From the sequence record MZ956763.1: a stretch of DNA of 64,000 nucleotides. The stretch is one strand, 5' to 3'. Origin of the DNA: a phage. Every line of letters starts with the position of its first letter. Within the stretch, counting starts at the first letter, position 1. Both the position numbers and the translations under genes were made by a program. Shown here in pieces: positions 1,838 through 21,010 of the stretch. Below the pieces are notes generated by a model. That model saw nothing but the letters and a program-made list of their open reading frames with translations, was not told the origin of the DNA and did not search any database.

Positions 1838-2719
1838 ATGAAAACATCTATCCGTGTTACAGTTCATTCACCGACTAAAGGGACTCACGAAGAAGAGTTT
1901 AACATTATCCAATTCCCTTCTGGTGAGATTGGTGGACACTTTTCACAAGAGCTTGTTGATTTCACTGCTTATGCAGCATCATCTATCAACAATGTAATCA
2001 TGATTGTGAAAGGTTATGATAAGGACACATTGTTTGCTGTGGCACTCGCTAAAGAAGCAATTGATGATTTAATTCCTCATGATTATGCCTTAAAGACTGT
2101 CATCTTTTACTACTTACCAAATGCACGATATGACCGTCACATGTTTAAAGGTGATGCAGCAGCTTTGAAGGTTTTTGCTAAACAGGTTAATGCAATGGGG
2201 TTTGGTGCAGTCTGTGCAGTTGACCCTCACAGCTATGTACCAGATAACCTGTTTAACTGCTTCCAAAGTATTCCTCAAAATGAAATTGCAGTCCACTATG
2301 CAAATGACCCACTGGTTGATTACTTAGTAGCCCCAGATGCAGGTGCTGCTAAGAAGATTGCAGAGACTGCTAAAGAGGTGGATAAACCATATATCACAAT
2401 GTCTAAGGTGCGCAACCTTAAGACTGGCGAAATTACTGGTATGCGAATCCTTGATGATGTTGATTTGACAGATAAAACCGTCATGATTCTGGACGATATC
2501 TGTGATGGCGGTCGAACATTCATAGAAGCAGCTAAACATCTTCGTGAAGCAGGTGCAAAACGTGTGGAACTCTATGTAACACATGGTATCTTTTCTAAAG
2601 GTGTTGAAAACCTTCTTGACAATGGTATTGACCACATCTACACTACAAACTCTTTAGGGGAAGCTAAAGACCGTGGTTTAACACATTATGGTCAAGTTAC
2701 TGTAGCAAACCTTGATTAA
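1838..2719 (+). CDS. ribose-phosphate pyrophosphokinase (PRPP synthetase)-like protein
   Basis: type-I PRTase/PRPP-binding motif VMILDDICDGGRT; size ~290 aa; hairpin terminator downstream. Confidence 0.7.
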   Translation: MKTSIRVTVHSPTKGTHEEEFNIIQFPSGEIGGHFSQELVDFTAYAASSINNVIMIVKGYDKDTLFAVALAKEAIDDLIPHDYALKTVIFYYLPNARYDRHMFKGDAAALKVFAKQVNAMGFGAVCAVDPHSYVPDNLFNCFQSIPQNEIAVHYANDPLVDYLVAPDAGAAKKIAETAKEVDKPYITMSKVRNLKTGEITGMRILDDVDLTDKTVMILDDICDGGRTFIEAAKHLREAGAKRVELYVTHGIFSKGVENLLDNGIDHIYTTNSLGEAKDRGLTHYGQVTVANLD

Positions 2720-2765
2720 AACTTTATAGGGGGCTTTTAAGCCCCATTTTGAGAGAGATTAAAAG

Positions 2766-4547: not shown

Positions 4548-4564
4548 AAGTATATGATAAGAGG

Positions 4565-4586
4565 CTCCTACGGGAGCCTTTTTTAA
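4565..4586 (+). terminator. intrinsic terminator
   Basis: GGCTCC-TACG-GGAGCC hairpin followed by TTTTTT. Confidence 0.7.
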
Positions 4587-4601
4587 TTTCTGGAGAATGC
4601 T

Positions 4602-4946
4602 ATGGACAACCTTTCCATATGGTTTAACAAGAAACCTGTGCAACCGAAATACTTACAAGTTGCCTATACAGACATCCTTGAAGTTCTCGGTAAAGAAAAG
4701 TTTGAAAAGTTTTGTGAAGGTATCTACAATCACCACTGCCAATTTGCTACAAAAGAGGGTATGTTTGTCATAGAACAGTTCTTTGGCAGAGACCAAGATG
4801 ACTATGAAGAGATTAGCTTTGTAATGAAATACATGATAGAGTATATTGAAAATCGTGGATTCGAAGTTAATCCTGAATTTTATGAACATGAGGGTGTACC
4901 TTTAGCAAAAGGTTTCGATGGCATACTCGTTAACTGGACTTGGTGA
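4602..4946 (+). CDS. hypothetical protein
   Basis: ORF 114 aa. Confidence 0.5.
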   Translation: MDNLSIWFNKKPVQPKYLQVAYTDILEVLGKEKFEKFCEGIYNHHCQFATKEGMFVIEQFFGRDQDDYEEISFVMKYMIEYIENRGFEVNPEFYEHEGVPLAKGFDGILVNWTW

Positions 4947-5287
4947 AAATTATGAAAATCAAAGAGATGAACATCAACATTGTCTTAGAAGAACGTTGGG
5001 AGAACATTAAGAGAACTGAGGACGGTCATAAGTTCCTCAACAAAATCTTAGTAGCAGCTAAAGAAGAACTGACTGGGAAGATTGCAGCAGCAATCACAAT
5101 AAAGGTGTGTGTAAAAGGTCTTCCAGACAATCACCAATTTGCACTTGACGAGTTTAAAGAGAGCTTCTACAATCCAAACAAACAGATGCTTGAAAGTAAC
5201 TTTGCAGTGTCTACAAGTATCGTCCATGACAGAAGCTTTATCCTTTACAAGAATATGAGAGGTGAGCCATGCAAGCATATTGGATAG
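4940..5287 (+). CDS. hypothetical protein
   Basis: ORF 115 aa, overlapping stop/start with neighbour. Confidence 0.5.
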   Translation: MVKIMKIKEMNINIVLEERWENIKRTEDGHKFLNKILVAAKEELTGKIAAAITIKVCVKGLPDNHQFALDEFKESFYNPNKQMLESNFAVSTSIVHDRSFILYKNMRGEPCKHIG

Positions 5288-5448
5288 AAATTTTACTGTC
5301 ACTTGGTAGTGTAGCAGTATTTGTATACCTTCTTTGCAAGTACTATGCAGAGCACAAAAAATGTGACTTCTGTGATGGAGAAGGGTACACAAGAGCAGGT
5401 TGTTGCCCTATGTGTGGTGGTTCTGGTAAAATGTTTAATAAGTAATTT
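5269..5448 (+). CDS. small membrane-anchored zinc-finger protein (59 aa, below ORF-track cutoff)
   Basis: hand translation MQAYWIEILLSLGSVAVFVYLLCKYYAEHKKCDFCDGEGYTRAGCCPMCGGSGKMFNK; GAGG RBS; N-terminal hydrophobic helix, two CxxCxGxG-like motifs. Confidence 0.4.
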
Positions 5449-5473
5449 AACAGTAAACTAAGAGGAAAGTATT

Positions 5474-7840
5474 ATGCGCATGGTAAACGACCACGCAGAA
5501 GTGATTAAGAGTTCAACTTCTTTAGAGACGTCTCAAGCACAGATTACAATGACACCTGAAATGTTCAGCCTTTTGAGTTCAGGTGTATACACATTCAAAG
5601 AAAGGGCAGTGATTCGTGAACTGTCATGTAACGCAGTAGATGCTCAAAAAGAAGCTGGAAAAGAGAACATCCCATTCCATGTGCATTTACCTACTCGTTT
5701 TGAGCCTTACTTTGAAGTTCGTGATTTTGGAACTGGTTTAACCCATGACAAAGTAATGAGTTTGTATCTGAACTACGGGGCTTCTACGAAGAATGACTCT
5801 AATGATTACATTGGTGCAATGGGTATCGGCTCAAAATCCCCATTTGCAATTGCTCAGTCATTCACAGTATCTAGCTATGTTGATGGTGTTGCTAATAAGT
5901 ACTCTGTTTACCTTGAGAATGGTATCCCTCAAGTAACTAAGCTTACTACCAACCAAACAAATGAACCCAATGGTTTAGCTGTACGTGTAGCAGTTGCTGA
6001 CCATCGTATTTCAAAGTTCTTTGAAGAGGCTGGTCACGTATACTCATACTTTGCTGTAAAACCAGAAAGTAACATTGTATATGATGATGTATTAGCAGAT
6101 ATGAATGTCATTGCCCGTGAAGAGGGTGTTTATGATGCTATGATTCATAAGCAAAGCTGGCGTTCTAGTGGCAACAGGACAGAGTTTAATGTGGTGATGG
6201 GTAATATTGCCTACCCAGTGAACATGGAAGCATTACTTGGTGATGATTTCTTCAAAGTCTTGCCAGAGTTTTTCCGTAGGAGCGTAGACCTTGTAAACAT
6301 CTACATGCCTATTGGTTCAGTGGCTATTGCAGCTTCTCGTGAAGCATTGCAGATGAATGACACGACAAAAAATGTTATCATTGAGGCTACTAAAAAGATA
6401 ACTGAAGCCATTACAAAGGATGTTATCAAGAAAGTTAATAGCCAACCTACACTCATGGATGCTGCACAGGCTTATGCTGAGTTACGTTTGAACTCACGAG
6501 AGATGTTTAATGCTGTGTGTCCAAAGCTAGAGTGGGGAGGCGTTAAGCTTGATTCTCTGGAAGAAGAATTACTAAATATTCGTCGTGGAATTATCTACGC
6601 AGAAGACGGCTCAGTCATTTATGAACGTGACGGTAAAGGTAATATTAAGGTTGATAGGAACGGGAACAATATCCCTAAAGTAGATTATCTTTATGACCCA
6701 GTTGCTTATGTCAAGTTCAACTCTTTAGAGAGTAAGATTCGTGCAACATCGCTTTCCTACACTCAAGAGGCAAGTATGTTCAATATCTTTGGCGCAATGC
6801 GTAAAAGCCAAATTGAACAGTTTTTGTTTGTTATCAATGACCGTCGCAATAAAAATGGTACTGAGAAGACTGTAGGACGCAATCAAATCTTGCGTGGTGC
6901 ATGTCGAGACTATGCCAGTGAGTCAAATCTGTTTCACAGATACAACGGTATTGTCTTTGTATTCTCTACTGAGAAAGAGTTAGACGACTTAATCAATCTG
7001 CACAAACTTGATAAAAGCTTGTTAAAGATTGTGAAGATGTCTGATAAGGAACACCATTATCAGCGTAAAGAAGCTGTAAGAGGTGTTGTAAAACTCTGGA
7101 AAGCTGTTCCAGCAGAAGGTGTAGCTTCATACACAGAGGTGTCAGAAGACTTAGACACAATTGAAGAGCCTCAACTTTATATCAAGGCAGTAGGTGATAC
7201 TGTTGATGGTGAATGTTTTTGCTCATCTCCAGATGATGTAGCTAAGTCAGTTGCCAATGTCATTGGAAAGACAGTCTATGTTTTCCGAAAAGCAAATTGG
7301 AAAAAGATACCAGAAGACTGGATTGAAGTAGATGAGAAGCTCTTGAACGACAGCTTAACTGATGTTCACTGGATTAACCATAACAGATATATGACACGTA
7401 TCTACATGAATGGTGTCCTTGACCTCACAAGCAGTTGGATTATTGCCAGAAACTTTACGTTCAATAACAAGAAGATTTCTCGTGGCTATTGCTATTCACG
7501 AGACACAAACAAAACTATCTTCTTAGAAGGTAATGAAGATGCTGTTGATGCAATGTTTGGTAAAATCCAATACGTTGCTGCACCGTTTGCATACACTTAC
7601 ACTATTAGCGTGTTGCAAGATTTGAAAAGTTGTCTTGATAATGATACAAAGCTTTACAAGAAAATTAAGAAAGCTGGTGACCGCATGGTCATTAAGGTGA
7701 CAAACTACCTTTCAAAAAGAAAACAAGAAAACTTCTTGCTTTCTCATTTAGATTGGAATAAAGTGTCACCCATCGAAGTGAGTAAGTTCTTAGGCTTTGA
7801 TGTGAAGTGTGTTCCAGAAGGGACTACAATTTACGATTAA
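5474..7840 (+). CDS. rIIA: rIIA-like protein with N-terminal GHKL (HATPase_c) ATPase domain
   Basis: 788 aa; Bergerat-fold motifs ELSCNAVDA (ExxxNxxDA), DFGTG, GAMGIGSKS near N-terminus; size/architecture like T4 rIIA. Confidence 0.5.
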   Translation: MRMVNDHAEVIKSSTSLETSQAQITMTPEMFSLLSSGVYTFKERAVIRELSCNAVDAQKEAGKENIPFHVHLPTRFEPYFEVRDFGTGLTHDKVMSLYLNYGASTKNDSNDYIGAMGIGSKSPFAIAQSFTVSSYVDGVANKYSVYLENGIPQVTKLTTNQTNEPNGLAVRVAVADHRISKFFEEAGHVYSYFAVKPESNIVYDDVLADMNVIAREEGVYDAMIHKQSWRSSGNRTEFNVVMGNIAYPVNMEALLGDDFFKVLPEFFRRSVDLVNIYMPIGSVAIAASREALQMNDTTKNVIIEATKKITEAITKDVIKKVNSQPTLMDAAQAYAELRLNSREMFNAVCPKLEWGGVKLDSLEEELLNIRRGIIYAEDGSVIYERDGKGNIKVDRNGNNIPKVDYLYDPVAYVKFNSLESKIRATSLSYTQEASMFNIFGAMRKSQIEQFLFVINDRRNKNGTEKTVGRNQILRGACRDYASESNLFHRYNGIVFVFSTEKELDDLINLHKLDKSLLKIVKMSDKEHHYQRKEAVRGVVKLWKAVPAEGVASYTEVSEDLDTIEEPQLYIKAVGDTVDGECFCSSPDDVAKSVANVIGKTVYVFRKANWKKIPEDWIEVDEKLLNDSLTDVHWINHNRYMTRIYMNGVLDLTSSWIIARNFTFNNKKISRGYCYSRDTNKTIFLEGNEDAVDAMFGKIQYVAAPFAYTYTISVLQDLKSCLDNDTKLYKKIKKAGDRMVIKVTNYLSKRKQENFLLSHLDWNKVSPIEVSKFLGFDVKCVPEGTTIYD

Positions 7841-7850
7841 AGTGTTTGAC

Positions 7851-7870
7851 AAGGGGCTTCAAAGCCCCTT
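7851..7870 (+). terminator. hairpin (terminator-like, no clear U-tract)
   Basis: AAGGGGCTTCAAAGCCCCTT palindrome right after stop. Confidence 0.4.
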
Positions 7871-7919
7871 AGAATAGCCTTACAAAATGATTTATTAACT
7901 AACAAGAGAGAGTAATAAG

Positions 7920-12380: not shown

Positions 12381-13166
12381 ATGGGTATTGTAAAAATTAT
12401 TAACGGTGATATCTTTTCAGCATTTGATAAAGGTAAGTTTGACATCATCGGTCAGGGTTGCAACTGTATGAATTTAATGGGTGCAGGTATCGCTGACAAG
12501 ATTTCTAAACTTTACCCAAAAGCATATGAGACCGATACAGAAGTTTATCTATATGCAGGTGGCATTCGTCACAAACCCTGTGAAAATTTACTGGGTAATT
12601 TCTCTGTAGCACGTTTAAAACAAGGTCGTATAGCTAACCTTTACACCCAACTTCATACTGGTAAAGATGCCCGATACAGTGCTTTAGAGTCATCTTTGAA
12701 GCAACTTAACAGATACTGTGAAGTCAATCAGTTGAAGAAAGTTGGTCTGCCTATGATTGGTGCAGGTATCGGTGGACTTGACCCTCAAGCTGTCACAGTT
12801 ATCATTAATCAGGTGATGAAGGGTGTAGATGTATATCTGTATGTCTACGAGACAGAGATGTACAACGAGTTACACTCAGGTTGGAAGAACTACTGTGAAC
12901 CAGAATACTTTGCAGGTGTAGCAGTGTTCACAGATAACGCAGTTACCCTCTTCAGACGAAGAAAAGGTAAGATACATCAAAGTAACCCTCCGGTTGAAAA
13001 GATGTCTCTAAGTAACGCTCTAGTTACCCACCTGTCGAAGAGCAATCACAGGATTGCAGTAACATTTGGCAGTGATGCAGATGCTTACATCTATGCAAGA
13101 ACTGATGAGGATATCGAGACGATTTTCTCTTCACCAGAAGTTACCTTCTTAGACGCAAAGAACTAA
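12381..13166 (+). CDS. Macro-domain (ADP-ribose binding/processing) protein
   Basis: N-terminus IINGDIFSAFDKGKFDIIGQGCNCMNLMGAGIADKI matches macrodomain GDIT...DAIVNAAN..GGG pattern; second Gly-rich loop GLPMIGAGIGGLDP. Confidence 0.65.
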   Translation: MGIVKIINGDIFSAFDKGKFDIIGQGCNCMNLMGAGIADKISKLYPKAYETDTEVYLYAGGIRHKPCENLLGNFSVARLKQGRIANLYTQLHTGKDARYSALESSLKQLNRYCEVNQLKKVGLPMIGAGIGGLDPQAVTVIINQVMKGVDVYLYVYETEMYNELHSGWKNYCEPEYFAGVAVFTDNAVTLFRRRKGKIHQSNPPVEKMSLSNALVTHLSKSNHRIAVTFGSDADAYIYARTDEDIETIFSSPEVTFLDAKN

Positions 13167-13240
13167 GAAACTCTGTAAAATATTCACAATAGACTAAGCC
13201 TTTCTTATCTGGTAAATTTTTCAGGTAAGGAGGGCTTTTT

Positions 13241-13419
13241 TATTTCAGAATTGTGCAGGTAGAGTTCTGTAGAGAAATCTGTAGAGAAAATTTTGAACTC
13301 CAAAGGGAAAATTCATTTTCAAGTTGTGCAGGTAATCTCCAAAGAGCTTTTTCATTTTCAAAACGTGCAGAGAAAAATCAGGTCGGGCAAGAAAAATCAT
13401 TTTAGAATTGTGCAGGTAG
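13241..13419. repeat. four direct repeats of ~22 nt (cATTTTCArNTTGTGCAGGTA) in non-coding region
   Basis: copies at ~13241, 13311, 13351, 13393; plus tandem 12-mer TCTGTAGAGAAA x2 at 13266-13290. Confidence 0.7.
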
Positions 13420-13594
13420 GTGGGTGTAGGTGGGGATGTCGCCATTTCTCACAAGGCTACCACATCCGAAAAGAAAAGTCAACAGAAAAATTTGTAGCGG
13501 ATTGAAAAATAATTCTTGATTTGTGTTCTGTTTTGTGGTATTCGCGCGCACCCGTTTCATTACATTTTTGCCAAAAATATTTTTAAAATTTTTC

Positions 13595-13623
13595 TTGACT
13601 ATTCGAACGGGGTTATCTAGTAT
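13595..13623 (+). promoter_or_regulatory. sigma70-like promoter TTGACT-17-TAGTAT with downstream leader hairpin
   Basis: consensus-like hexamers; followed by CAACGGGGCGACAAGCCC hairpin and TAGGAG RBS. Confidence 0.5.
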
Positions 13624-13675
13624 TTGCATCAACGGGGCGACAAGCCCGATAGCCTTAAACTAGGAGAATCTAAAA

Positions 13676-13882
13676 ATGCTATACGGTCGTGAATTGATGG
13701 TTACAACTAACGTTAACACAAATGTAAAACGTTTTTACATGCAAATTTGTGGCGTATGGTCTAGAATATCAGAGGCTGACTATTGCAACTATGTAGAAAC
13801 GGCAATCAACTCTGATTGCTACCTTACAAGGAATACAAGAAAGCACATAAGACAGACAGCAGTTTACTACTACGATATCTAA
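13676..13882 (+). CDS. hypothetical protein (early)
   Basis: ORF 68 aa behind conserved RBS cassette. Confidence 0.4.
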   Translation: MLYGRELMVTTNVNTNVKRFYMQICGVWSRISEADYCNYVETAINSDCYLTRNTRKHIRQTAVYYYDI

Positions 13883-13884
13883 TA

Positions 13885-13970
13885 AAGTACTTTACAAGGG
13901 GCTTAAAAGTTGATATCTTAAGCCCCAGATAAAGAGCTTTATCAACAACCTTAAACTAGGAGATTCAAAA
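13885..13970 (+). repeat. reiterated intergenic module (hairpin GGGGCTTA..TAAGCCCC + CCTTAAACTAGGAGATTCAAAAATG)
   Basis: near-identical copies at 14352, 14700, 15767, 16562. Confidence 0.8.
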
Positions 13971-14351
13971 ATGGCATATCGTGCACCTAAATTCATCAAT
14001 AAAGACAATTTCCGCAATGCACTGGAAAAATCACTTGATGAGAATTTTACAGGTCGGGTTATTGTTGTACACGCATTCAATTTTAAGTATGATATTAACG
14101 GGAATAAAATCAACCATTACACGGCAACCATGTTAGATGGTGCGCTTTCAAGTGAAAAAGCCGTACTGAATGCACTTGCTGGACGTGGTAAAAACCTGAT
14201 AAAATGCAATAAGAGACGTTATCAGGGCGGCGCATATGGTTACGATGATGCTGTTTATCATCTTGAGAATATGGGCTATTCAGTGGAAAAAGCTGGAGCG
14301 CCGCAAATCATTGGTAGCGATGGTTATGTAACAATTTTCAAAATTAAATAA
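13971..14351 (+). CDS. hypothetical protein (early)
   Basis: ORF 126 aa. Confidence 0.5.
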   Translation: MAYRAPKFINKDNFRNALEKSLDENFTGRVIVVHAFNFKYDINGNKINHYTATMLDGALSSEKAVLNALAGRGKNLIKCNKRRYQGGAYGYDDAVYHLENMGYSVEKAGAPQIIGSDGYVTIFKIK

Positions 14352-14441
14352 TAAAGTACTTTACAGGGGGCTTATAGTTCGATAAAGTAAGCCCCAGATA
14401 AAGAGCTTTACCACTAAATCCTAAATTGGAGAATCTGAAAA
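14352..14441 (+). repeat. reiterated intergenic module (hairpin + RBS)
   Basis: GGGGGCTTATAGTTCGATAAAGTAAGCCCC hairpin, then conserved AGATAAAGAGCTTTACCACTAAATCCTAAA..GGAG. Confidence 0.8.
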
Positions 14442-14699
14442 ATGGCTATTATCAAAAACGTTGTAGTTCCTGCAAAAACTCGTGATGACGCTCGCGTTAT
14501 GGCTAAAAAGTTATGTGGGAGAGTGGTTGACAACGGGAAACAATCTGCTGTAAGATGGGGTGTAAAGGTTGATAAACATTTAACCTTAAAACGTAGTTCA
14601 AACAACCTTTTTAAAGGTGTAAAATCACTCGGTAAAGTGAACGTTTTTACCAAAAAAGGTTATAAAATGCACTTATCATTAACTGGCAATTTAATCTGA
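14442..14699 (+). CDS. hypothetical protein (early)
   Basis: ORF 85 aa. Confidence 0.45.
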   Translation: MAIIKNVVVPAKTRDDARVMAKKLCGRVVDNGKQSAVRWGVKVDKHLTLKRSSNNLFKGVKSLGKVNVFTKKGYKMHLSLTGNLI

Positions 14700-14787
14700 T
14701 AAAGTACTTTACAAGGGGCTTAAAAGTTGATATCTTAAGCCCCAGATAAAGAGCTTTACCACTAAATCCTAAACTGGAGATTCAAAA
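14700..14787 (+). repeat. reiterated intergenic module (hairpin + RBS)
   Basis: same module as 13885. Confidence 0.8.
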
Positions 14788-15084
14788 ATGAAATTATCAA
14801 ATAAAGTTAGGGAAAACCTTAGCAAATTACTCAATAAAATTGATTTTATCGAGACATCAAGAAATAGTCATGATGTTATGGAATGGTTACACGGCAAAAT
14901 AAAAGGCCGTCGTGTGGTGATTTGCTTATGGAATAGTTGCAGGGAGTATAAAAAACCTGTATTACAAGTTAATATATACGATAATACTTTTAAAAGCCCT
15001 GTAAAGTCTAAAAGCGATTTATTAGAATCTTATGAGATATCTGTAAATGGTAAAGTATCACGTAAAGAGGTAACACCATGCTAA
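14788..15084 (+). CDS. hypothetical protein (early)
   Basis: ORF 98 aa. Confidence 0.45.
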   Translation: MKLSNKVRENLSKLLNKIDFIETSRNSHDVMEWLHGKIKGRRVVICLWNSCREYKKPVLQVNIYDNTFKSPVKSKSDLLESYEISVNGKVSRKEVTPC

Positions 15085-15410
15085 TGACTGGCATCACCGC
15101 AATCATAGCCATTATAGCACTTTATAAGGCATATAAAGCCTATAATCTGGCAAGTAAGGCAATCACGCAGCAGGTTAGCAATAGCCTTGTAGAGAGCTTT
15201 CTAGGGCGCCTCAGTGATGAGCAAATAAAGCGGCTAGAGATGAGCTTCAGATATAAAGCGAAAACCTATCAGATAAGTGACATCTTCAAAGATGATTTTC
15301 AGCTTGTCGATGATTATAATGCTCTGATAAATGCTTTAAATATCAGTGACTTAAAAGACTACTACGCTGTAATTGTTCAAGAACTGAGCAAACGAAAACA
15401 AAATGCTTGA
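15078..15410 (+). CDS. hypothetical membrane protein (early)
   Basis: ORF 110 aa, N-terminal hydrophobic helix. Confidence 0.45.
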   Translation: MLMTGITAIIAIIALYKAYKAYNLASKAITQQVSNSLVESFLGRLSDEQIKRLEMSFRYKAKTYQISDIFKDDFQLVDDYNALINALNISDLKDYYAVIVQELSKRKQNA

Positions 15411-15434
15411 CACTGGTTTTTAGATAGATTAAAT
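15406..15434 (+). promoter_or_regulatory. sigma70-like promoter TTGACA-17-TAAATT
   Basis: followed by conserved leader CATCAACGGGGGGCGATAACCCC hairpin and RBS. Confidence 0.55.
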
Positions 15435-15494
15435 TACACATCAACGGGGGGCGATAACCCCACTACATAAAGCCCTTAAACTAGGAGATTCAAA

Positions 15495-15767
15495 ATGTAT
15501 ACTACTAACAACGGTCGCACCTTAAACGTAACCCTACGCCACTATGTAAACGGGGTGATGCACTTCGAGGATTTACGGGCTGAACAGCATATTTTGGATT
15601 GGCAACTTGCAGGACTCCAAAAAACTGCTACAGGATACGGGAAAAAGATTTCAACTAGTTGGAAAGTATACTACGAGGGACGTTTGCGCAGAATTTATCA
15701 AGATGTGTACAGTAATAGCGCATCAAGTTACATCATGGTAAAAGGTAAAAAACTGCATTTAGTATAA
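15495..15767 (+). CDS. hypothetical protein (early)
   Basis: ORF 90 aa. Confidence 0.45.
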   Translation: MYTTNNGRTLNVTLRHYVNGVMHFEDLRAEQHILDWQLAGLQKTATGYGKKISTSWKVYYEGRLRRIYQDVYSNSASSYIMVKGKKLHLV

Positions 15768-15852
15768 AGTACTTTACAAGGGGCTTATAGTTCGATAAAG
15801 TAAACCCCAGATAAAGAGCTTTACCACTAAATCCTAAATTGGAGATTCAAAA
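15767..15852 (+). repeat. reiterated intergenic module (hairpin + RBS)
   Basis: same module as 14352. Confidence 0.8.
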
Positions 15853-16257
15853 ATGGCTATTAATAACCGTGAATTATCAATCTTAAAAGCACGTTTGACC
15901 GTCAACCGGATTAATGTTATTACATCATCAGCCCCAGACGAAACACTGCAAAACATTATTGGGAAGATTCAAAGTGTTATCTTAGACGTTGAAAGCGTAA
16001 AAAACTCACTGGCTGACGTTGCAGCAGGTATCACGCTAGACGGTGCACAATATGAAATGACCGACATGTTAGGCAAATCTAAGGTAATTAATAGGGAGTT
16101 AGATTTGAAAATGTTTCGTTTTGCTGTTAAAGTGTGGCTATCTGTCGAGTATGACGCAAATTTTGCAATCGCTGACTTTTTTGCAACATGGTTGCAACGT
16201 AATTTAACAAATCACGATTTTCGTGATATCTGCGATGTAATTTACGCAGAACTATAA
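15853..16257 (+). CDS. hypothetical protein (early)
   Basis: ORF 134 aa. Confidence 0.5.
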   Translation: MAINNRELSILKARLTVNRINVITSSAPDETLQNIIGKIQSVILDVESVKNSLADVAAGITLDGAQYEMTDMLGKSKVINRELDLKMFRFAVKVWLSVEYDANFAIADFFATWLQRNLTNHDFRDICDVIYAEL

Positions 16258-16265
16258 AATTTCTC

Positions 16266-16294
16266 TTGATTTTGTTTTTTAAAGCAAGTAAATT
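16266..16294 (+). promoter_or_regulatory. sigma70-like promoter TTGATT-17-TAAATT
   Basis: followed by conserved leader ACTAATCAACGGGAGG... hairpin. Confidence 0.55.
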
Positions 16295-16357
16295 ACTAAT
16301 CAACGGGAGGTCATCACCTACCCACTACATAAAACCCTTAAACTAGGAGATTCTAAA

Positions 16358-16561
16358 ATGGCTATTATTAACGGTTTAAACATTGAGACTACTCACATCA
16401 AAGATATCAAAGTCGGTGATATAGTCCTTTTTCACGGCGTAGAAAAAACCGTCACGGCGAAAGATATCAAGGAGGATTCATTCATGGGCCGAACCCTCTT
16501 CGGTGATTCCTATTGCTTAGGTTACCTTGCAGTTTTAAAAGTTGTCAAAAATAATCGTTAA
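16358..16561 (+). CDS. hypothetical protein (early)
   Basis: ORF 67 aa. Confidence 0.4.
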   Translation: MAIINGLNIETTHIKDIKVGDIVLFHGVEKTVTAKDIKEDSFMGRTLFGDSYCLGYLAVLKVVKNNR

Positions 16562-16648
16562 AGTACTTTACAAGGGGCTTATAGTTCGATAAAGTAAGCC
16601 CCAGATAAAGAGCTTTACCACTCAATCCTTAAACTAGGAGATTCAAAA
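16562..16648 (+). repeat. reiterated intergenic module (hairpin + RBS)
   Basis: same module as 14352. Confidence 0.8.
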
Positions 16649-17191
16649 ATGAAATGCTTTCACGGTACTACTCAAGAAAACTTCATCAACCTGATTAATA
16701 ACGGTGATAAGCCATCAGGTGCATGGAATTGTTCGGATATGGACGGCAATTTTTACGTGTATCCAGAGAATAAAATCTATGGCGACGATGAGGAAGAGAT
16801 AACATCTGAAGGCATCCAGCAAGCGTTAGGCAATGCCACTATCACGGCAGCTTTCCAGATGAAAACCCAAAATATTGTTATCTTAGAACTTGATATCCCA
16901 GAGGATGACCTGAATGATGATTATTCTTGCGATAATATGTCTGGCGTAGCAAGTTTTACAGAATACTTCGATTTGAATTGGATTAAAAAGGTTTACGTAA
17001 CTGAGTTTAATGCGATGTTTTCGCCTTTTTGTCTTCCTTCATTGGATAACCCAAATTTAAACTATCTTGACGAGTCTCTGGAACTTCTTGCTAAAAGTGT
17101 TCAACAGTCGGACAGTATTCAGGTTTTTTGTGACATCATGGATACACTAACGGGAAACATCGCAGAAGAGGATTTAAAGAGCTTTTTTTAA
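16649..17191 (+). CDS. hypothetical protein with PARP/ART-like HG[ST]..N..I..G N-terminal motif
   Basis: MKCFHGTTQENFINLINNG resembles H-Y-E class ADP-ribosyltransferase motif (cf. PARP LLWHGSRTTNFAGILSQG); tentative. Confidence 0.4.
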   Translation: MKCFHGTTQENFINLINNGDKPSGAWNCSDMDGNFYVYPENKIYGDDEEEITSEGIQQALGNATITAAFQMKTQNIVILELDIPEDDLNDDYSCDNMSGVASFTEYFDLNWIKKVYVTEFNAMFSPFCLPSLDNPNLNYLDESLELLAKSVQQSDSIQVFCDIMDTLTGNIAEEDLKSFF

Positions 17192-17232
17192 AAACCTATG
17201 CAATCACCTTATAAACACTAATCAGCCCCTTA

Positions 17233-17253
17233 CAGGGGCTTTTAAGGGGCTTA
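17233..17253 (+). terminator. intrinsic terminator
   Basis: AGCCCCT-TAC-AGGGGCT + TTTT. Confidence 0.6.
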
Positions 17254-17257
17254 AATC

Positions 17258-17491
17258 ATGCTTATAACCGTTTATCTTATCCTTTCTATTTGTAATGGCC
17301 ATTCATGTGATTTTAAAGGGCTTGAGGAGTTCACAGGAAGTAAAGAAAATGCTGTTCAGGTCTGTCAGATAGCAAGGCAAGACTACCCCGCCAGTGATGA
17401 CATACAATGTTATTTTAAGACAGAAGATGAAGATGGTATCTATTTCGATAGTGTAGACGGTCAATATGAAATAATTATAGAAAAAGACTAG
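17258..17491 (+). CDS. hypothetical small protein with N-terminal hydrophobic segment
   Basis: ORF 77 aa. Confidence 0.4.
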   Translation: MLITVYLILSICNGHSCDFKGLEEFTGSKENAVQVCQIARQDYPASDDIQCYFKTEDEDGIYFDSVDGQYEIIIEKD

Positions 17492-17517
17492 ACAAGCCTG
17501 ATAAAAATCTGTAAATT
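17489..17517 (+). promoter_or_regulatory. promoter TAGACA-17-TAAATT with conserved leader hairpin GGGAGGGATGACCTCCC
   Basis: same cassette as 18050, 18646, 18975. Confidence 0.5.
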
Positions 17518-17579
17518 GTCAATCAACGGGAGGGATGACCTCCCAACTAAACAAAGTCCTTAAACTAGGAGATTCAAAA

Positions 17580-17921
17580 ATGGCTTATGTAACCGTAATT
17601 ACCAATAAAGAAGATTCATCTTGGTCAACTCAAGTAAGTGACAAGATGTCACCTATGCAGTGCCTAAAATACTTTGAGCAATGGAACAAAGGTGAGGAAA
17701 CAAGCCCCTTTCAAGTAATGCAGATTATTCATACAGACAACGAAGGGAATAAAACTGTTTTGAATAGTGAGTACTATGCAACCAGATTAGAAACGAGAAG
17801 TAAAGCAATGAAGCTCTTACGTGAATCCGGTTATTCTCATATTGCCGCGCTAATCTGGGATGACCTCCTAAAAAGTCAGCGTATCAGCTATGTAAAACCT
17901 GAAAAAATATTCATCAGTTAA
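17580..17921 (+). CDS. hypothetical protein (early)
   Basis: start placed at ATG after conserved RBS (MAYVTVITNK...); ORF-track N-terminal extension is translated leader. Confidence 0.45.
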   Translation: MAYVTVITNKEDSSWSTQVSDKMSPMQCLKYFEQWNKGEETSPFQVMQIIHTDNEGNKTVLNSEYYATRLETRSKAMKLLRESGYSHIAALIWDDLLKSQRISYVKPEKIFIS

Positions 17922-18049
17922 TCAATAACTTACAAAAAACTTTTAAAAAAATGTTGACAATCCCTCTTGACATTGGTAACTTTGTTCGAGGGGGCTTATC
18001 TAAAAGGGATTCACTTAAAAGATTCTTTATAGATAAGCTCAAAAATTGC

Positions 18050-18078
18050 TTGCAATCAGCTATCAAAACAAGTAAATT
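18050..18078 (+). promoter_or_regulatory. promoter TTGCAA-17-TAAATT with conserved leader hairpin
   Basis: leader CAACGGGAGGGATAACCTCCCC, then TAAACTAGGAGATTCAAAAATG. Confidence 0.55.
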
Positions 18079-18140
18079 ACTAATCAACGGGAGGGATAAC
18101 CTCCCCACTAAGTAAAGTCCTTAAACTAGGAGATTCAAAA

Positions 18141-18671
18141 ATGAACAAGTTCAAAGCTATCAACTTCATTCGTTCAAATAGTGTTATGTCTAAGCCTGTT
18201 AAAGACACCTATGAATTTCGTTGTAATGGTGTACACTTTGCAACCATCACTAAATCAGAAAACGGGGCTTATTACATTCATCGTCGTAATGTTGCAACCG
18301 TTGTAGTCTCTCACTTTATGCAAGCCGTTGCGGAACTCCTCCCGATGTTTTTAGGGCTTTACTTAGATGAGTGTAAAAACGTTCACAATCACGTTAAAAA
18401 CCTTTTAAACAGTTATAAAATGGCTTATGAACGTTCTATCAAGTCCTTAAACAAGTTCTATAAAGCCCCTGTAAATACTGTTTCAATGGCCTACGCTGCA
18501 AATGGTGAAAGAGTAAGCCTATCCGATGTGGAAGATATCGAGCTTTACGACCATCGTCCTAACGGTTACTCTCAGACCCTCGGTGAAGGTTTATCATTCA
18601 ATATCAAGAACTTAGAAAAAACTTTAAAAGATATTGAAAAAGATATTGACGAGACAATCAAAAATCTGTAA
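18141..18671 (+). CDS. hypothetical protein (early)
   Basis: ORF 176 aa. Confidence 0.5.
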   Translation: MNKFKAINFIRSNSVMSKPVKDTYEFRCNGVHFATITKSENGAYYIHRRNVATVVVSHFMQAVAELLPMFLGLYLDECKNVHNHVKNLLNSYKMAYERSIKSLNKFYKAPVNTVSMAYAANGERVSLSDVEDIELYDHRPNGYSQTLGEGLSFNIKNLEKTLKDIEKDIDETIKNL

Positions 18672-18674
18672 ATT
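18646..18674 (+). promoter_or_regulatory. promoter TTGACG-17-TAAATT with conserved leader hairpin
   Basis: overlaps 3' end of previous gene; leader GGGAGGGATGACCTCCC. Confidence 0.55.
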
Positions 18675-18736
18675 ACTAATCAACGGGAGGGATGACCTCC
18701 CTACTAAATAAAGTCCTTAAACTAGGAGTTATCAAG

Positions 18737-19000
18737 ATGGAAAACGTAGAATTAACCACACTTTTACAAATTGCAACCGACAAAGAAAACGTAGCATTAA
18801 TTCACCGCATCGAAAGTGATTTGTTCAATGGTGAAATCATCAAAGAGTCTTACGAAGTTGTCGGATTCAAAGATGGTAAAACGTTTGGATTCTTTGACCT
18901 CGAAAAAGGCAACGCTATTACAAAATATGATGTTNTATCTTGTGAGATTCTTACAAAATACAACGAAAAAAGGCTTGCAACATACGCNAACATGCAGTAA
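18737..19000 (+). CDS. hypothetical protein (early; contains ambiguous bases)
   Basis: start at ATG after GGAG (MENVELTT..); two N in sequence. Confidence 0.4.
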   Translation: MENVELTTLLQIATDKENVALIHRIESDLFNGEIIKESYEVVGFKDGKTFGFFDLEKGNAITKYDVXSCEILTKYNEKRLATYXNMQ

Positions 19001-19003
19001 ATT
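18975..19003 (+). promoter_or_regulatory. promoter TTGCAA-17-TAAATT with conserved leader hairpin
   Basis: -10 overlaps stop codon of previous gene. Confidence 0.5.
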
Positions 19004-19065
19004 ACTAATCAACGGGAGGGATGACCTCCNTACTAAATAAAACCNTTAAACTAGGAGATTCAAAA

Positions 19066-19314
19066 ATGGCAACTATCCGCGCAACCGTTAACNAATTNNG
19101 CTTCTACTCTCTGGATGTTAAATTTGACCTTGTGGGCACTGATAACGCCTTTGAAATGGTGAAAGGTCTTATCAGTCAGACCATCAAAGACTATAATCCT
19201 TCTGATGAGTTCTGGAAAGAAACAAAACAGGAAGTTCTTAAAGATGGTTATTCTTTTCACTATTGGGGTGAAAAAATTGTCTCTCTGTACTACGATAAAG
19301 AAGGCACTAACTAA
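19066..19314 (+). CDS. hypothetical protein (early; contains ambiguous bases)
   Basis: start at ATG after conserved RBS (MATIRATV..). Confidence 0.4.
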   Translation: MATIRATVNXXXFYSLDVKFDLVGTDNAFEMVKGLISQTIKDYNPSDEFWKETKQEVLKDGYSFHYWGEKIVSLYYDKEGTN

Positions 19315-19352
19315 ACGCCGCAGCGGGGCTAAATAGCCCCAGATACCTTTAC

Positions 19353-19377
19353 AGCCCCTCTGAATAGGGGCTTTTTT
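19353..19377 (+). terminator. intrinsic terminator (second of two tandem hairpins)
   Basis: GGGGCTAAATAGCCCC then AGCCCCTCTGAATAGGGGCT + TTTTTT. Confidence 0.7.
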
Positions 19378-19379
19378 AC

Positions 19380-21010
19380 GTCTTATACAATCCTTATACA
19401 AACCCTTTCCCTTTCCTTCCTAGAATCTTACTAGACCTTAAAAGCAATAACTCTATAGTCTACTCTATAGCCTTTTATCAAATCAACTTAAATATAAGCC
19501 CATAACCCGAAAGGGAAGGGCAACCATTTAAACGCTCTATAAAGCCCTATAACAACCTTATTAACCCAACTTAAGGGATTGCATTATCTCACCCTTAAAA
19601 GCCCTTTATAAAGCTTCCTAGAGCCTTAAAAGAATCTTATAAGGGTGTAAGCTTTATTATCTCGTTAGCTATCTTGTGAATAACTAAAAAGGGCTATGAG
19701 ATAGATTCTATCGAATCCTATTGTTAGTGTCTTAAAAGTATGTTATAGGGGCTATGAAGTAGCTTAAAAGTTGCTTAAAAGTTACGTAAAAGAGGTTATA
19801 AAGTTACGTAAATGCTAGCCCCCTTAACATTTTCTTAACAATTTCTTAACAATCCCTACATAGTTATGCTTTTAAGGCACTTGTTAGCAACTTGTTAGCC
19901 CCTTGTTAAATCTCTGTTAAGACCACGTAAAAGCCTTGTAAGAGTCTTTGACATAGCCTTAAAAGCTCCTGTAAAGCCCTATAAAGAGCTATCCATACAG
20001 TTGAGGGGTAGATACTAGGAAGAGACTTAAAAGGGCTTATAAGGGGCTATAGAGAGCTTTTAAGAGATATGTTTAGAGATTCACTAAGAGGAAAGGGAAT
20101 GATAAGAAAAGAGATAGTGACCATGTTAATAGCTTGTTAAAAAGATTAAACACTTGTTAGGAACTTGTTAATTATCTTTACAAAATAACCCTTAAAAATT
20201 AACTTGTTAGCTCTTGTTAGTCATCTGTTAAGATTCTGTAAAGCCTATTCAGTACTTGTTAGAAAACTGTTACAACCTTGTTAGTTCTGTTAAGAATATG
20301 TTAAGACCTCTGAAGAGATGTTAAAGAGATGTAGCAACTGTTAAGAGATTGTTAATGATATTTTAAAATTTTGCAAAGGGGGTGTTAAGGGGCTGTTAAG
20401 GGCTACCAAGCAGATATACATCCTAATCAGATATTTTTGAGTTCCTTCAAAGACCCTAAAAAATGACTTGATAGTCCTATTTTATAAAAATTTTAAAATT
20501 CTGAATAATTACCTATACAGTCTTCTAAAAATACAGGCATAAACAGGCTTATAAGATACCTTGTTAGTACCGTGTTAGACCTTGTGAGATAAGGTCTGTA
20601 AAGATATTCCTGTTAAGTTTGCTAAAACAGTCTATATAGAGGCTTAGTAATACCTAGTGAACATCTATAGAGGGTATCATAGGTAACCTAGAGATTAAGA
20701 GGTGTATAGGAGCTTCTAAGAGGGTATAGAGAGGTGGTTAAGGTGATTGTATAGGTTGTTAAGAAGGCTTGTTAGGAGAGTGTTTAGAAGGCTTGTTAGA
20801 GGGCTAGTTAGAAGGGTTATACAGAGGGGCTATTAAGACCACTAGATAGTTACTAAGATACTATATAGTACTATATAACTATATAGAGAGTAAGATTAAG
20901 AAGGTTGTTAAGAAGGATAGATATTTTATTCACATATGATGGTGACCCAGAGGTTGGGACAACCGATAAAATTTTATAAAAATTAAAAAGCCCCCAATTA
21001 AGGAGGCTCT
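19380..21010. repeat. 1.6 kb ORF-free region densely packed with short reiterated motifs (YTGTTAR, CTTAAAAG, CTTATAAG, TATAG)
   Basis: no ORF >60 aa; about 30 copies of CTTGTTAG/CTGTTAAG-like words, many CTTAAAAG/TATAAAG words; lies between convergent gene blocks. Confidence 0.8.
20985..21009 (-). terminator. probable intrinsic terminator for leftward block
   Basis: minus-strand hairpin (AGCCTCC/GGGGGCT) followed by T-run. Confidence 0.45.

What the first reader, a model, noticed from the sequence alone, without database searches (positions are those of the whole stretch)
13885..16648. Second reiterated intergenic module: conserved hairpin in two co-varying versions followed by a fixed RBS context
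Five intergenic regions carry AAGTACTTTACAAGGGG then a hairpin, either GGGGCTTAAAAGTTGATATCTTAAGCCCC or GGGGCTTATAGTTCGATAAAGTAAGCCCC, then AGATAAAGAGCTTTACCACTAAATCCTAAA(C/T)T(A/G)GAG..ATG. There is no U-tract, so these look more like RNA processing (RNase III-type) sites or attenuators than simple terminators; they may also mark recombination joints used to shuffle early genes.
Basis: seen in the sequence. Interest (0 to 1): 0.5.

Follow-up and report, generated by a model that had tools for sequence, protein, structure and literature searches.

The report
Promoter-hairpin cassettes between phage early genes
Five near-identical ~88-base spacers between small early genes of a Felix O1-like phage each combine a host-type promoter, a conserved RNA hairpin wrapped around it and a standard ribosome-binding leader, and related phages gain, lose and swap genes at these spacers; this design is known from T4-like phages and appears here in a different phage group.

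Summary
Exactly five copies of an 85-90-nt module fill the stop-to-ATG gaps between small ORFan genes at 13883-16648 of a Felixounavirus window. The -10 hexamer sits in the hairpin loop and 3' arm, and the predicted start is at the first bases after the hairpin. In 83 unique copies from relatives, found by anchoring on the flanks and not the stem, TAnnnT at 17-18 nt is kept in 82, with 14 different hexamers. The 9-bp stem is kept through compensatory changes, and G.U wobbles outnumber A.C 138 to 6. This points to sense-strand RNA, not a DNA operator. A 12-bp outer helix extends it to a ~59-nt two-tier hairpin with no U-tract. Homology breakpoints between relatives fall in the modules (23 of 34 clusters; p=6e-9). 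Deletions leave one hybrid module, and module variants are swapped in front of the same gene. Best reading: a PeSL-like promoter/stem-loop cassette, as described for T4-like phages, that starts transcripts, marks the ends of read-through RNA (attenuation or RNase III-type processing, unresolved) and serves as a recombination joint. It is a new member of a known kind, of moderate interest.

The parts
13883..13970 (+). Module copy 1 (version A), filling the whole gap between the 68-aa ORF stop (13880-13882) and the ATG at 13971
   Evidence: CM hit of 93.8 bits
13883..13941 (+). Copy 1 two-tier hairpin: outer arm TAAAGTACTTTA (13883-13894), CAA, inner hairpin, AGA, outer arm TAAAGAGCTTTA (13930-13941)
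   Evidence: RNA fold -22.3 kcal/mol, z -4.97, 0/200 shuffles; pair counts
13898..13926 (+). Copy 1 inner hairpin GGGGCTTAA / 11-nt loop / TTAAGCCCC
13891..13896 (+). Copy 1 -35 hexamer TTTACA
13914..13919 (+). Copy 1 -10 hexamer TATCTT with TGn extension; predicted start about 13926-13928
   Evidence: the start site is inferred from spacing
13959..13973 (+). Copy 1 Shine-Dalgarno GGAG, 8-nt spacer and ATG
14352..14441 (+). Module copy 2 (version B): two-tier hairpin 14352-14410, inner hairpin 14367-14395, -35 14360-14365, -10 TAAAGT 14383-14388, GGAG 14428-14431, ATG 14442
   Evidence: (89.1 bits)
14700..14787 (+). Module copy 3 (version A): two-tier hairpin 14700-14758, inner hairpin 14715-14743, -35 14708-14713, -10 TATCTT 14731-14736, GGAG 14776-14779, ATG 14788
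   Evidence: 92.4 bits
15765..15852 (+). Module copy 4 (version B, C.A mismatch in stem pair 5): the outer arm starts in the stop codon TAA (15765-15767); two-tier hairpin 15765-15823, inner hairpin 15780-15808, -35 15773-15778, -10 TAAAGT 15796-15801, GGAG 15841-15844, ATG 15853
   Evidence: 83.5 bits
16559..16648 (+). Module copy 5 (version B): the outer arm starts in the stop codon TAA (16559-16561); two-tier hairpin 16559-16617, inner hairpin 16574-16602, -35 16567-16572, -10 TAAAGT 16590-16595, GGAG 16637-16640, ATG 16649
   Evidence: 86.0 bits

Best explanation
Each module is a self-contained gene connector of the PeSL (promoter-early stem-loop) type, and it works at three levels. (1) As DNA it is a host sigma70 early promoter: -35 TTTACA, a 17-nt spacer, and a -10 TAnnnT that often carries a TGn extension. 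Transcription is predicted to start at the first bases after the hairpin (AGAUAAAG...). The resulting ~44-nt standard leader carries a fixed Shine-Dalgarno context for the next small gene. (2) In RNA that reads through from the upstream gene, the same sequence folds into a ~59-nt two-tier hairpin that begins at or in the stop codon: a 12-bp A/U-rich outer helix, a 3x3 internal loop, a 9-bp G/C-rich inner stem and an 11-nt loop. It has no U-tract, so it is not a classical intrinsic terminator. It most likely defines or protects the 3' end of the upstream message and insulates neighbouring cassettes, either by attenuating or pausing polymerase or by RNase III-type processing. Processing would leave a protective hairpin upstream and a 5' end close to the promoter's own start. 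(3) Because the ~90-nt module is repeated, it serves as a homologous-recombination joint at which [module + ORFan] cassettes are deleted, inserted, replaced and re-paired among Felix O1-like phages. Shown here: the repeat, the conservation pattern of the promoter elements, selection for pairing in the sense strand, and the recombination signatures. Inferred: promoter activity, the start site, and what the hairpin does to RNA.
For: Promoter. All five copies match TTTACA-17-TATCTT or TAAAGT. In 83 unique copies from the window, 8 GenBank relatives and IMG/VR contigs, collected by flank anchors, TAnnnT lies 17 nt (73 copies) or 18 nt (9 copies) after TTTACA in 82 of 83. There are 14 different hexamers, positions 3-5 are nearly random (0.07-0.27 bits), G at -14 is present in 71 of 82 and TGn in 49 of 82. 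The T and A of the hexamer are invariant columns inside an otherwise variable loop. In Felix O1, ORFs 16 and 20, which follow the same 57-bp repeat, were maximally expressed at 5 min by RT-PCR (PMC3185647).

Hairpin. Stem pairs 1-9 are paired in 93-100% of unique copies against 23-37% for the next two positions. Compensatory changes include G-C<->U-A at pair 3 (9 copies), U-A<->A-U at pair 7 (17), A-U<->U-A at pair 8 (13) and five pair types at pair 9. For the whole structure, 95.6% of cells are paired and the covariation score is 0.130 against 0.068, with 0/500 shuffles reaching either value; slid controls give 31-56% paired. The outer helix shows G-C<->U-A (10 copies) and U.G->U-A or C-G (9 copies). 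There are 138 G.U cells against 6 A.C cells, so the fold is selected on the + (sense) strand. Mean free energy is -11.8 kcal/mol for the inner hairpin and -21.2 for the full structure, with z about -4.9. Erwinia phage phiEa104 keeps the element with GGTG...CACC stems.

Recombination. 23 of 34 homology-breakpoint clusters fall in the intergenic modules, which cover 21% of the region (p=6e-9). Four junctions (VpaE1, REP8, Alf5, Felix O1) have overlapping homology of 27-110 nt, equal to one module or its shared RBS part, which leaves one hybrid module. The same downstream gene is preceded by up to 9 different module variants (hexamer plus stem arms) in different phages. All flanking genes are ORFans. 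The anatomy matches the published PeSL description (PMC2839356).
Against: No transcript 5' or 3' ends are available for any Felix O1-like phage, so promoter use, start site and hairpin function are all inferred. A generic sigma70 scan of the region is not enriched over shuffles (26 found, 21.5 expected), so the promoter case rests on the conservation pattern. Both hexamers are imperfect (9 of 12 matches). Breakpoints at gene boundaries are expected in any viable mosaic, because selection removes breaks inside genes, so enrichment alone does not prove that the modules cause the exchanges. The unique copies are related by descent and by exchange, so covariation counts are not independent events. 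Part of the outer helix is also constrained by the -35 hexamer, by the stop codon and by my search anchors.
Confidence: 0.7

Rival explanations
1. The hairpin's specific job is RNase III processing, as at the T7 early sites. Read-through polycistronic RNA would be cut in or near the 3x3 internal loop. The upstream mRNA would end in a protective hairpin, and the downstream RNA would start at about the same base as promoter-initiated RNA. This is compatible with the promoter and recombination parts of the best explanation; it is a rival only to the attenuator reading.
For: The two-tier geometry (12-bp lower helix with one mismatch, 3x3 internal loop, 9-bp upper stem, about 59 nt, about -22 kcal/mol) is similar in size and energy to my folds of T7 early intergenic regions (upper stems of 9-13 bp with flanking lower pairing, -17 to -20 kcal/mol). 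The lower helix shows covariation, which a simple attenuator stem would not need. No U-tract appears in 83 variants, while canonical hairpin-plus-T-run terminators exist nearby at 13196-13237 and about 19355-19380. T7 also pairs promoters with such hairpins in its early intergenic regions.
Against: There are no cleavage data. RNase III determinants and antideterminants were not tested. The T7 site coordinates came from memory, because the record does not annotate them. Rfam has no matching family. The lower helix overlaps the -35 hexamer and the stop codon, which may explain part of its conservation.
Confidence: 0.3
2. The hairpin is a transcription terminator or strong attenuator for upstream transcription, as proposed and reporter-tested for T4-type PeSL stem-loops, so that each cassette is a separate transcription unit.
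For: It is a G/C-rich 9-bp stem placed immediately after the stop codon. A PeSL stem-loop reduced lacZ expression as much as rrnB T1 did (PMC2839356). Terminators coupled to promoters are common in bacteria (bioRxiv 10.64898/2026.08.19.745784).
Against: The sequence after the stem is AGAUAAAGAGC in all variants, with no U-tract, and the terminator scan does not call these sites. The loop is long at 11 nt. The geometry differs from the bacterial coupled elements, where the stem-loop DNA acts as the -35 hexamer and the -10 lies just after the T-tract.
Confidence: 0.25
3. The inverted repeat is a DNA operator. A dimeric phage or host protein binds GGGGCTTA-N13-TAAGCCCC, and/or the TAAAGnnCTTTA palindromes, across the promoter to switch early transcription off.
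For: It is a perfect dyad overlapping the spacer and -10. The two flanking 12-bp near-palindromes lie at -35 and at about +4 to +15. Terminator palindromes can double as transcription-factor sites (section title only).
Against: Arm sequences change through compensatory substitutions rather than being conserved. G.U wobbles outnumber A.C 138 to 6, which makes no sense for double-stranded DNA. In variants with T at column 12 and A at column 65, each flanking palindrome is broken internally while the inter-flank pairing is kept.
Confidence: 0.08
4. The module has no function beyond a promoter and RBS. The hairpin and the repeat are by-products of recent duplication and gene conversion of one intergenic sequence.
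For: The five window copies are 85% identical, and module variants clearly spread by exchange.
Against: The stem is maintained through at least five covarying positions and into a different genus (Erwinia phage phiEa104), while the loop positions between the -10 anchors drift freely. Slid-partner controls collapse to 31-56% paired.
Confidence: 0.07

Closest known systems
PeSLs (promoter-early stem-loops) of T4-type phages RB49/phi1, T4/PST and KVP40/nt-1 (Arbiol et al. 2010, PMC2839356; Comeau et al. 2014, PMC4122927)
   Same: [quoted passage not shown] Both have an A/T-rich 5' end, sigma70-like -35 and -10 hexamers, a GGGG...CCCC stem-loop between the boxes or overlapping the -10, and an SD plus start codon at the 3' end. 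Both cluster among ORFans in a variable early region, and indels and replacements between close relatives are flanked by the cassettes.
   Different: The host lineage is Ounavirinae (Felix O1-like and Erwinia phiEa104-like), not T4-like, and there is no sequence homology. The stem-loop here is extended by a 12-bp outer helix into a two-tier hairpin that spans the whole promoter, from about -45 to +15. Pairing here is supported by covariation and by wobble strand asymmetry. Promoter and terminator activity and mini-circles were shown experimentally for PeSLs but not here.
T7 early-region RNase III processing sites (R0.3, R0.5, R1, R1.1, R1.3; Dunn & Studier 1983, cited from my own knowledge)
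   Same: Both are hairpins of about 55-65 nt between successive early genes, with an upper stem of about 9-13 bp, an internal loop or mismatches, a lower helix and no U-tract. Both lie close to promoters, and their predicted stabilities are similar.
   Different: There is no sequence similarity, the loop here is much larger (11 nt against 3-5), and the promoter here lies inside the hairpin rather than beside it. Cleavage is not demonstrated.
Promoter-coupled terminators in bacteria (Fletcher et al. 2026 preprint, 10.64898/2026.08.19.745784)
   Same: In both, one DNA stretch encodes an RNA stem-loop for the upstream unit and a promoter for the downstream unit, with the RNA end and the start site only a few bp apart.
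   Different: In the bacterial elements the stem-loop DNA serves as the -35 hexamer, a T-tract fills the spacer and the -10 follows. Here the stem-loop encloses the spacer and the -10, and there is no T-tract.
The 57-bp direct repeat reported in the Felix O1 genome paper (Whichard et al. 2010, PMC3185647)
   Same: It is the same element: CTTTACATGGGGCTTAAAAGTCTGTAAAGTAAGCCCCAGATAAAGAGCTTTACCACT, located between genes 15/16 and 19/20.
   Different: The paper lists it only as a direct repeat. It does not identify a promoter or a hairpin, and it states that how transcription is organised and timed is not known.

Membership tests
PeSL (promoter-early stem-loop cassette) | [quoted passage not shown] | tested here: met
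   Five copies each fill an 85-90-nt stop-to-ATG gap
PeSL (promoter-early stem-loop cassette) | sigma70-like -35 and -10 hexamers at proper spacing | tested here: met
   TTTACA-17-TATCTT or TAAAGT; TAnnnT at 17-18 nt in 82 of 83 unique relatives
PeSL (promoter-early stem-loop cassette) | Stable stem-loop, typically GGGG...CCCC, between the boxes or overlapping one of them | tested here: met
   GGGGCTTA-N13-TAAGCCCC spans the spacer and the -10; mean free energy -11.8 kcal/mol; covariation
PeSL (promoter-early stem-loop cassette) | Shine-Dalgarno sequence and start codon at the 3' extremity; A/T-rich 5' part | tested here: met
   GGAG 8-10 nt before the ATG in all five copies; TAAAGTA upstream of the -35
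PeSL (promoter-early stem-loop cassette) | Clustered among genes of unknown function in a variable region, with indels and replacements between relatives flanked by the motifs | tested here: met
   All 10 neighbouring proteins match PHROGs of unknown function and no Pfam family; breakpoints and hybrid modules
PeSL (promoter-early stem-loop cassette) | Demonstrated promoter and terminator/attenuator activity; mini-circle formation | not testable with these tools
   Requires reporter fusions, in vitro transcription and inverse PCR
PeSL (promoter-early stem-loop cassette) | Occurrence in T4-type phages (the family as originally delimited) | tested here: not met
   The window and its relatives are Ounavirinae (Felixounavirus; Erwinia phage phiEa104). 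I therefore file it as a PeSL-like analogue, not as a homologue.
sigma70 promoter | The conservation pattern expected of a -10 element (T-12, A-11 and T-7 fixed, middle positions free; optional TGn) | tested here: met
   Hexamer positions 1, 2 and 6 kept in 82 of 83 copies, positions 3-5 at 0.07-0.27 bits, G at -14 in 71 of 82
sigma70 promoter | A mapped transcription start and dependence on the -10 and -35 hexamers | not testable with these tools
   No TSS data found for Felix O1-like phages. The only indirect evidence is RT-PCR timing in Felix O1.
Intrinsic (Rho-independent) terminator | G/C-rich hairpin with a short loop, followed immediately by a U-tract | tested here: not met
   AGAUAAAGAGC follows the stem in all variants and the loop is 11 nt; the terminator scan does not call these sites, whereas it does call 13196-13237
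RNase III processing site (T7 type) | About two helical turns of interrupted double-stranded RNA: an upper and a lower stem around an internal loop | tested here: met
   12-bp outer helix, 3x3 internal loop and 9-bp inner stem, supported by covariation
RNase III processing site (T7 type) | Absence of antideterminant base pairs in the proximal and distal boxes; actual cleavage by RNase III | not tested
   I could not recall the rules reliably enough to apply them, and cleavage needs an enzyme assay or a comparison of rnc+ and rnc- hosts
Palindromic operator for a dimeric DNA-binding protein | Half-site sequence conserved, with no strand asymmetry | tested here: not met
   Compensatory arm changes, and 138 G.U cells against 6 A.C cells
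Rfam families | A match to any curated RNA family | tested here: not met
   Only one chance-level hit in 13000-20000, outside the modules

The most novel reading that the evidence does not exclude
One 59-nt sequence is read twice. As DNA it is a sigma70 promoter. As read-through RNA it is an RNase III-type two-tier hairpin whose cleavage in the 3' side of the internal loop yields the same 5' end (AGAUAAAG...) as the promoter's own start. Every cassette would then give the same leader and a hairpin-capped upstream message, whether it is transcribed on its own or by read-through. The element would be kept uniform across Ounavirinae by gene conversion.
Probability: 0.25. Interest if true: 0.65.

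Novelty: new member of a known kind. Interest (0 to 1): 0.45.

Why it matters
Felix O1-like phages are widely used for Salmonella and E. coli typing, biocontrol and therapy, yet how their early transcription is organised was stated to be unknown in the genome paper. These modules give a concrete and testable map of early promoters and RNA boundaries. They also explain why the ORFan content of this region differs between otherwise ~90% identical phages. They extend the PeSL idea, in which regulatory cassettes double as recombination linkers, beyond T4-like phages. That supports its being a general solution in large virulent phages. The embedded hairpin, backed by covariation and wobble strand asymmetry, is a clean case of one sequence under simultaneous DNA-level (promoter) and RNA-level (structure) selection. 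The modules are also natural, portable insertion points for phage engineering.

Tried and rejected
1. Rfam scan of 13000-20000 at E<=1 found nothing relevant.

2. The generic promoter/terminator scan is not enriched over shuffles for promoters and does not call the module hairpins as terminators. I used it only for coordinates.

3. Literature searches for a Felix O1-type transcriptome, TSS map or earlier interpretation of the repeat found only the bare 'direct repeat' listing in PMC3185647. Two of these searches were too loose to be informative.

4. The MAFFT alignment A3 puts a gap in the 3' arm of the 29-nt hairpin class, so pairs 7-9 are undercounted. The end-anchored counts are the better figures for those pairs.

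5. The T7 RefSeq record does not annotate RNase III sites. I folded the intergenic regions using site positions from memory, so that comparison shows resemblance only.

6. Operator/palindrome reading: rejected on covariation and wobble asymmetry.

7. Flanking 12-mers as independent palindromic protein sites: disfavoured, because the T12/A65 variants break each palindrome but keep the inter-flank pairing.

8. A second promoter using the TTTACC of the downstream arm: no TAnnnT lies at 16-18 nt, by inspection of the sequence.

9. The weak 17-mer match at 28582 has no properly spaced -10 and no hairpin, so it is not a member.

10. The first Python call was an incomplete script and produced nothing.


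Full report
**What the window is.** The region 13500-17100 matches 253 phage records. The best are Escherichia phages REP5, HK3 and VpaE1 at about 90% identity, all Felixounavirus (Felix O1-like myoviruses, subfamily Ounavirinae). The finding lies in a run of small same-strand genes downstream of a phosphatase gene and a canonical terminator at 13196-13237. All ten neighbouring proteins belong to PHROG families of unknown function and have no Pfam domain.

**The observation.** It is confirmed. The 17-mer occurs five times with at most 1 mismatch against 0.2 matches expected, and the 30-mer occurs four times against 0 expected. The five copies are 85% identical over about 110 columns. [quoted passage not shown] A covariance model built from relatives finds only these five in the 64 kb (83.5-93.8 bits), plus one weak relative at 7831-7886. 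Copy 2 has one substitution in the 17-mer. Copy 4 has a C.A mismatch in the stem. Copies 1 and 5 differ in the 3' third. No copy has a U-tract.

All five copies read TTTACA, then 17 nt, then TATCTT (with a TGn extension; copies 1 and 3) or TAAAGT (copies 2, 4 and 5).
- The -35 hexamer sits immediately 5' of the hairpin.
- The spacer is the 5' arm plus most of the loop.
- The -10 hexamer occupies the last four loop bases and the first two bases of the 3' arm.
- With normal spacing, the start falls on the last base of the hairpin or on the A/G just after it. This is an inference.
- Transcripts started here would therefore begin AGAUAAAGAGCUUUACC... and would lack the hairpin.

A generic scan does not make this significant (26 sites found, 21.5 expected). 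The conservation pattern does. I collected copies from 8 GenBank relatives and from IMG/VR contigs with a pattern anchored on the flanks only (CTTTACA-N28-32-AGATAAAGAGC). This gave 187 instances and 83 unique cores. TAnnnT lies 17 or 18 nt after TTTACA in 82 of the 83, with 14 different hexamers. Hexamer positions 3-5 carry only 0.07-0.27 bits. G at -14 is present in 71 of 82 and TGn in 49 of 82. The T and A are invariant columns in an otherwise variable loop. This is the signature of a sigma70 -10 element.

The Felix O1 genome paper lists the same 57-bp sequence as a direct repeat between genes 15/16 and 19/20, without interpretation. It reports that ORFs 16 and 20 were maximally expressed at 5 min (PMC3185647). 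That is weak but consistent support.

**The hairpin is real and selected in sense-strand RNA.** Because the copies were found by their flanks, the stem can be tested fairly.
- Counting from both ends, pairs 1-9 are paired in 93-100% of unique copies and the next two positions in 23-37%.
- Compensatory changes occur at pair 3 (G-C to U-A, 9 copies), pair 7 (U-A to A-U, 17), pair 8 (A-U to U-A, 13) and pair 9 (five pair types). Pair 5 alternates C-G, U.G and U-A.
- The pair-count tool gives 95.6% paired cells and a covariation score of 0.130 against 0.068, with 0/500 shuffles reaching either value. Slid partners give only 31-56% paired. A3 misaligns pairs 7-9 for the 29-nt class, so one search is better for those pairs.
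- G.U cells outnumber A.C cells 138 to 6. The fold is therefore favoured on the + strand, the sense strand of the genes. That argues against a double-stranded operator or a cruciform.

These copies are related by descent and by exchange, so the counts are not independent events. The sign of the evidence is nevertheless consistent at several positions and in two genera: Erwinia phage phiEa104 carries GGTGTTTAG...CTAAGCACC.

**A larger, two-tier structure.** The 12-mer TAAAGTACTTTA overlaps the stop codon and the -35 hexamer. It pairs with TAAAGAGCTTTA at +4 to +15 after the hairpin. Together they give a 12-bp outer helix (one A.A mismatch and one U.G pair), a 3x3 internal loop, the 9-bp inner stem and an 11-nt loop.
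- The whole structure is about 59 nt at about -22 kcal/mol, with z about -4.9 and 0/200 shuffles folding as well.
- The outer helix shows G-C to U-A at one pair (10 copies) and U.G to U-A or C-G at another (9 copies).
- In the U-A variants each 12-mer stops being a palindrome on its own, yet the inter-flank pair is kept. This favours the long hairpin over two separate protein-binding sites.
- Part of this helix is also constrained by the -35 hexamer, the stop codon and my search anchors, so I treat it as supported but less firmly than the inner stem.

**What the hairpin does.** It can exist only in RNA that reads through from the upstream gene, and it begins at the stop codon. It is not a classical intrinsic terminator. 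AGAUAAAGAGC follows the stem in every variant, and the loop is long. The phage does use ordinary hairpin-plus-T-run terminators close by. Two RNA-level readings remain, and I cannot separate them.
- Attenuation or pausing, as proposed and reporter-tested for T4-type PeSL stem-loops (PMC2839356).
- RNase III-type processing, as at the T7 early sites, whose folded geometry and stability are similar (the site positions came from memory).

Under the processing reading, a cut on the 3' side of the internal loop would leave a hairpin-capped upstream message. It would also leave a downstream 5' end almost identical to the promoter's own start. That is attractive but speculative.

**Recombination joints.**
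- Gene content in this block differs between relatives by whole cassettes.
- BLAST of 13241-19100 against all loci of at least 6 kb gave 34 clusters of internal homology breakpoints. Of these, 23 lie in the intergenic modules, which cover 21% of the region (p=6e-9), and several of the rest lie within a few nt of a module.
- Four junctions show overlapping homology equal to one module or to its shared RBS part. Alf5 lacks the two genes between copies 1 and 3 and has one hybrid module (94-nt overlap). Its upstream flank resembles copy 1 and its 3' part resembles copy 3. REP8 lacks the gene between copies 2 and 3 (110-nt overlap). VpaE1 lacks the 68-aa gene, with the crossover in the 27-nt RBS context shared with the sibling module. 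Felix O1 lacks three genes between two sibling modules (68-nt overlap).
- Felix O1 and EC6 carry a different 513-nt gene at a module-bounded position.
- The same downstream gene is preceded by different module variants in different phages, for example 7 variants before the MKCFHG gene. The modules themselves are therefore exchanged.
- Phage E9 has two modules in tandem with no gene between them.

One caveat applies. Breakpoints at gene boundaries are expected for any viable mosaic. The hybrid modules and the variant swapping are the stronger evidence.

**Comparison with what is known.** The anatomy matches the published definition of PeSLs almost point for point: stop codon, A/T-rich stretch, sigma70 boxes, a GGGG...CCCC stem-loop between the boxes or over the -10, SD and ATG, ORFan neighbourhood, and indels flanked by the motifs (PMC2839356, PMC4122927). 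PeSLs were described only in T4-like phages, and I found no paper applying the idea to Felix O1-like phages. There is no sequence homology, so this is an analogue in another subfamily, that is, a new member of a known kind. Its own features are the two-tier hairpin that spans the whole promoter and the unusually clear covariation and strand-asymmetry evidence. A sibling module in the same block (TTGACx-17-TAAATT, then a covarying hairpin just after the predicted start, then the same RBS context) and the element at 7831-7886 (hairpin wholly within the spacer) correspond to other PeSL subclasses.

**Verdict.** The best explanation is a PeSL-like promoter/RNA-hairpin/leader cassette that also acts as a recombination linker (confidence about 0.7). 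Promoter activity, the start site and the hairpin's biochemical role are inferred and need transcript-end mapping. Interest is moderate (0.45).

Noticed in passing
window 13595-13675, 15407-15494, 16267-16357, 17489-~17581, ~18050-18140, 18646-~18735, ~18975-19066: A sibling repeated module with seven copies: TTGACx-17-TAAATT or TAGTAT, then CAAC plus a G/C hairpin just after the predicted start, then the same RBS context CCTTAAACTAGGAGATTCAAAAATG. The hairpin varies with compensation (GGGAGGgatgACCTCCC, GGGGGGcgataaCCCC, GGGAGGTcatcACCTaCCC). The ORF listing starts at 17535 and 18692 are artefacts, because that ATG lies in the hairpin loop.
   Followed up: partly
window 7831-7886: A weak relative of the module (21.7 bits): TTGACA, then the hairpin GGGGCTTcaaAGCCCC wholly inside the spacer, then TAGAAT. 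It looks like another promoter/stem-loop subclass.
   Followed up: partly
window 13240-13590: About 350 nt with no convincing ORF between a canonical terminator (13196-13237) and the first promoter module. It contains three exact copies of TTGTGCAGGTA at 13251, 13324 and 13408 (spacing 73 and 84 nt).
   Followed up: partly
window ~19400-21000: About 1.6 kb without long ORFs, packed with degenerate short repeats at 10-11-nt spacing (CTTGTTAg..., TAAAAGnnCT...). It corresponds to the gap between ORF23 and ORF24 of Felix O1. It could be an origin, a genome-end region or a protein-binding array.
   Followed up: partly
window 19321-19380: GGGGCTAAATAGCCCC-AGATACCTTTACA-GCCCCTCTGAATAGGGGCTTTTTT: a short hairpin followed by AGATA and TTTACA, like a scrambled remnant of the module, and then a canonical hairpin-plus-T-run terminator that closes the early block.
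   Followed up: no
window 17192-17257: This intergenic gap has no promoter module. It carries CAGCCCCTTACAGGGGCTTTT (terminator-like), followed by AAGGGGCTTAAATC and the ATG.
   Followed up: no
window ~19030-19100: Several ambiguous bases (N) in the window sequence, inside the last sibling module and at the start of the next gene.
   Followed up: no
L008 (Escherichia phage E9) 3933-4090: Two copies of the module lie in tandem. The first is truncated just before its Shine-Dalgarno sequence and there is no gene between them. This is a gene-less 'solo' module, probably the scar of an illegitimate deletion.
   Followed up: partly
L010 (IMGVR_UViG_2974556886_000001) 2441-7294; L003 (Felix O1): Copy number of the module varies widely between genomes, from 3 in Felix O1 to at least 9 in one 90-kb IMG/VR contig. 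The copies are always clustered in the same early block.
   Followed up: no
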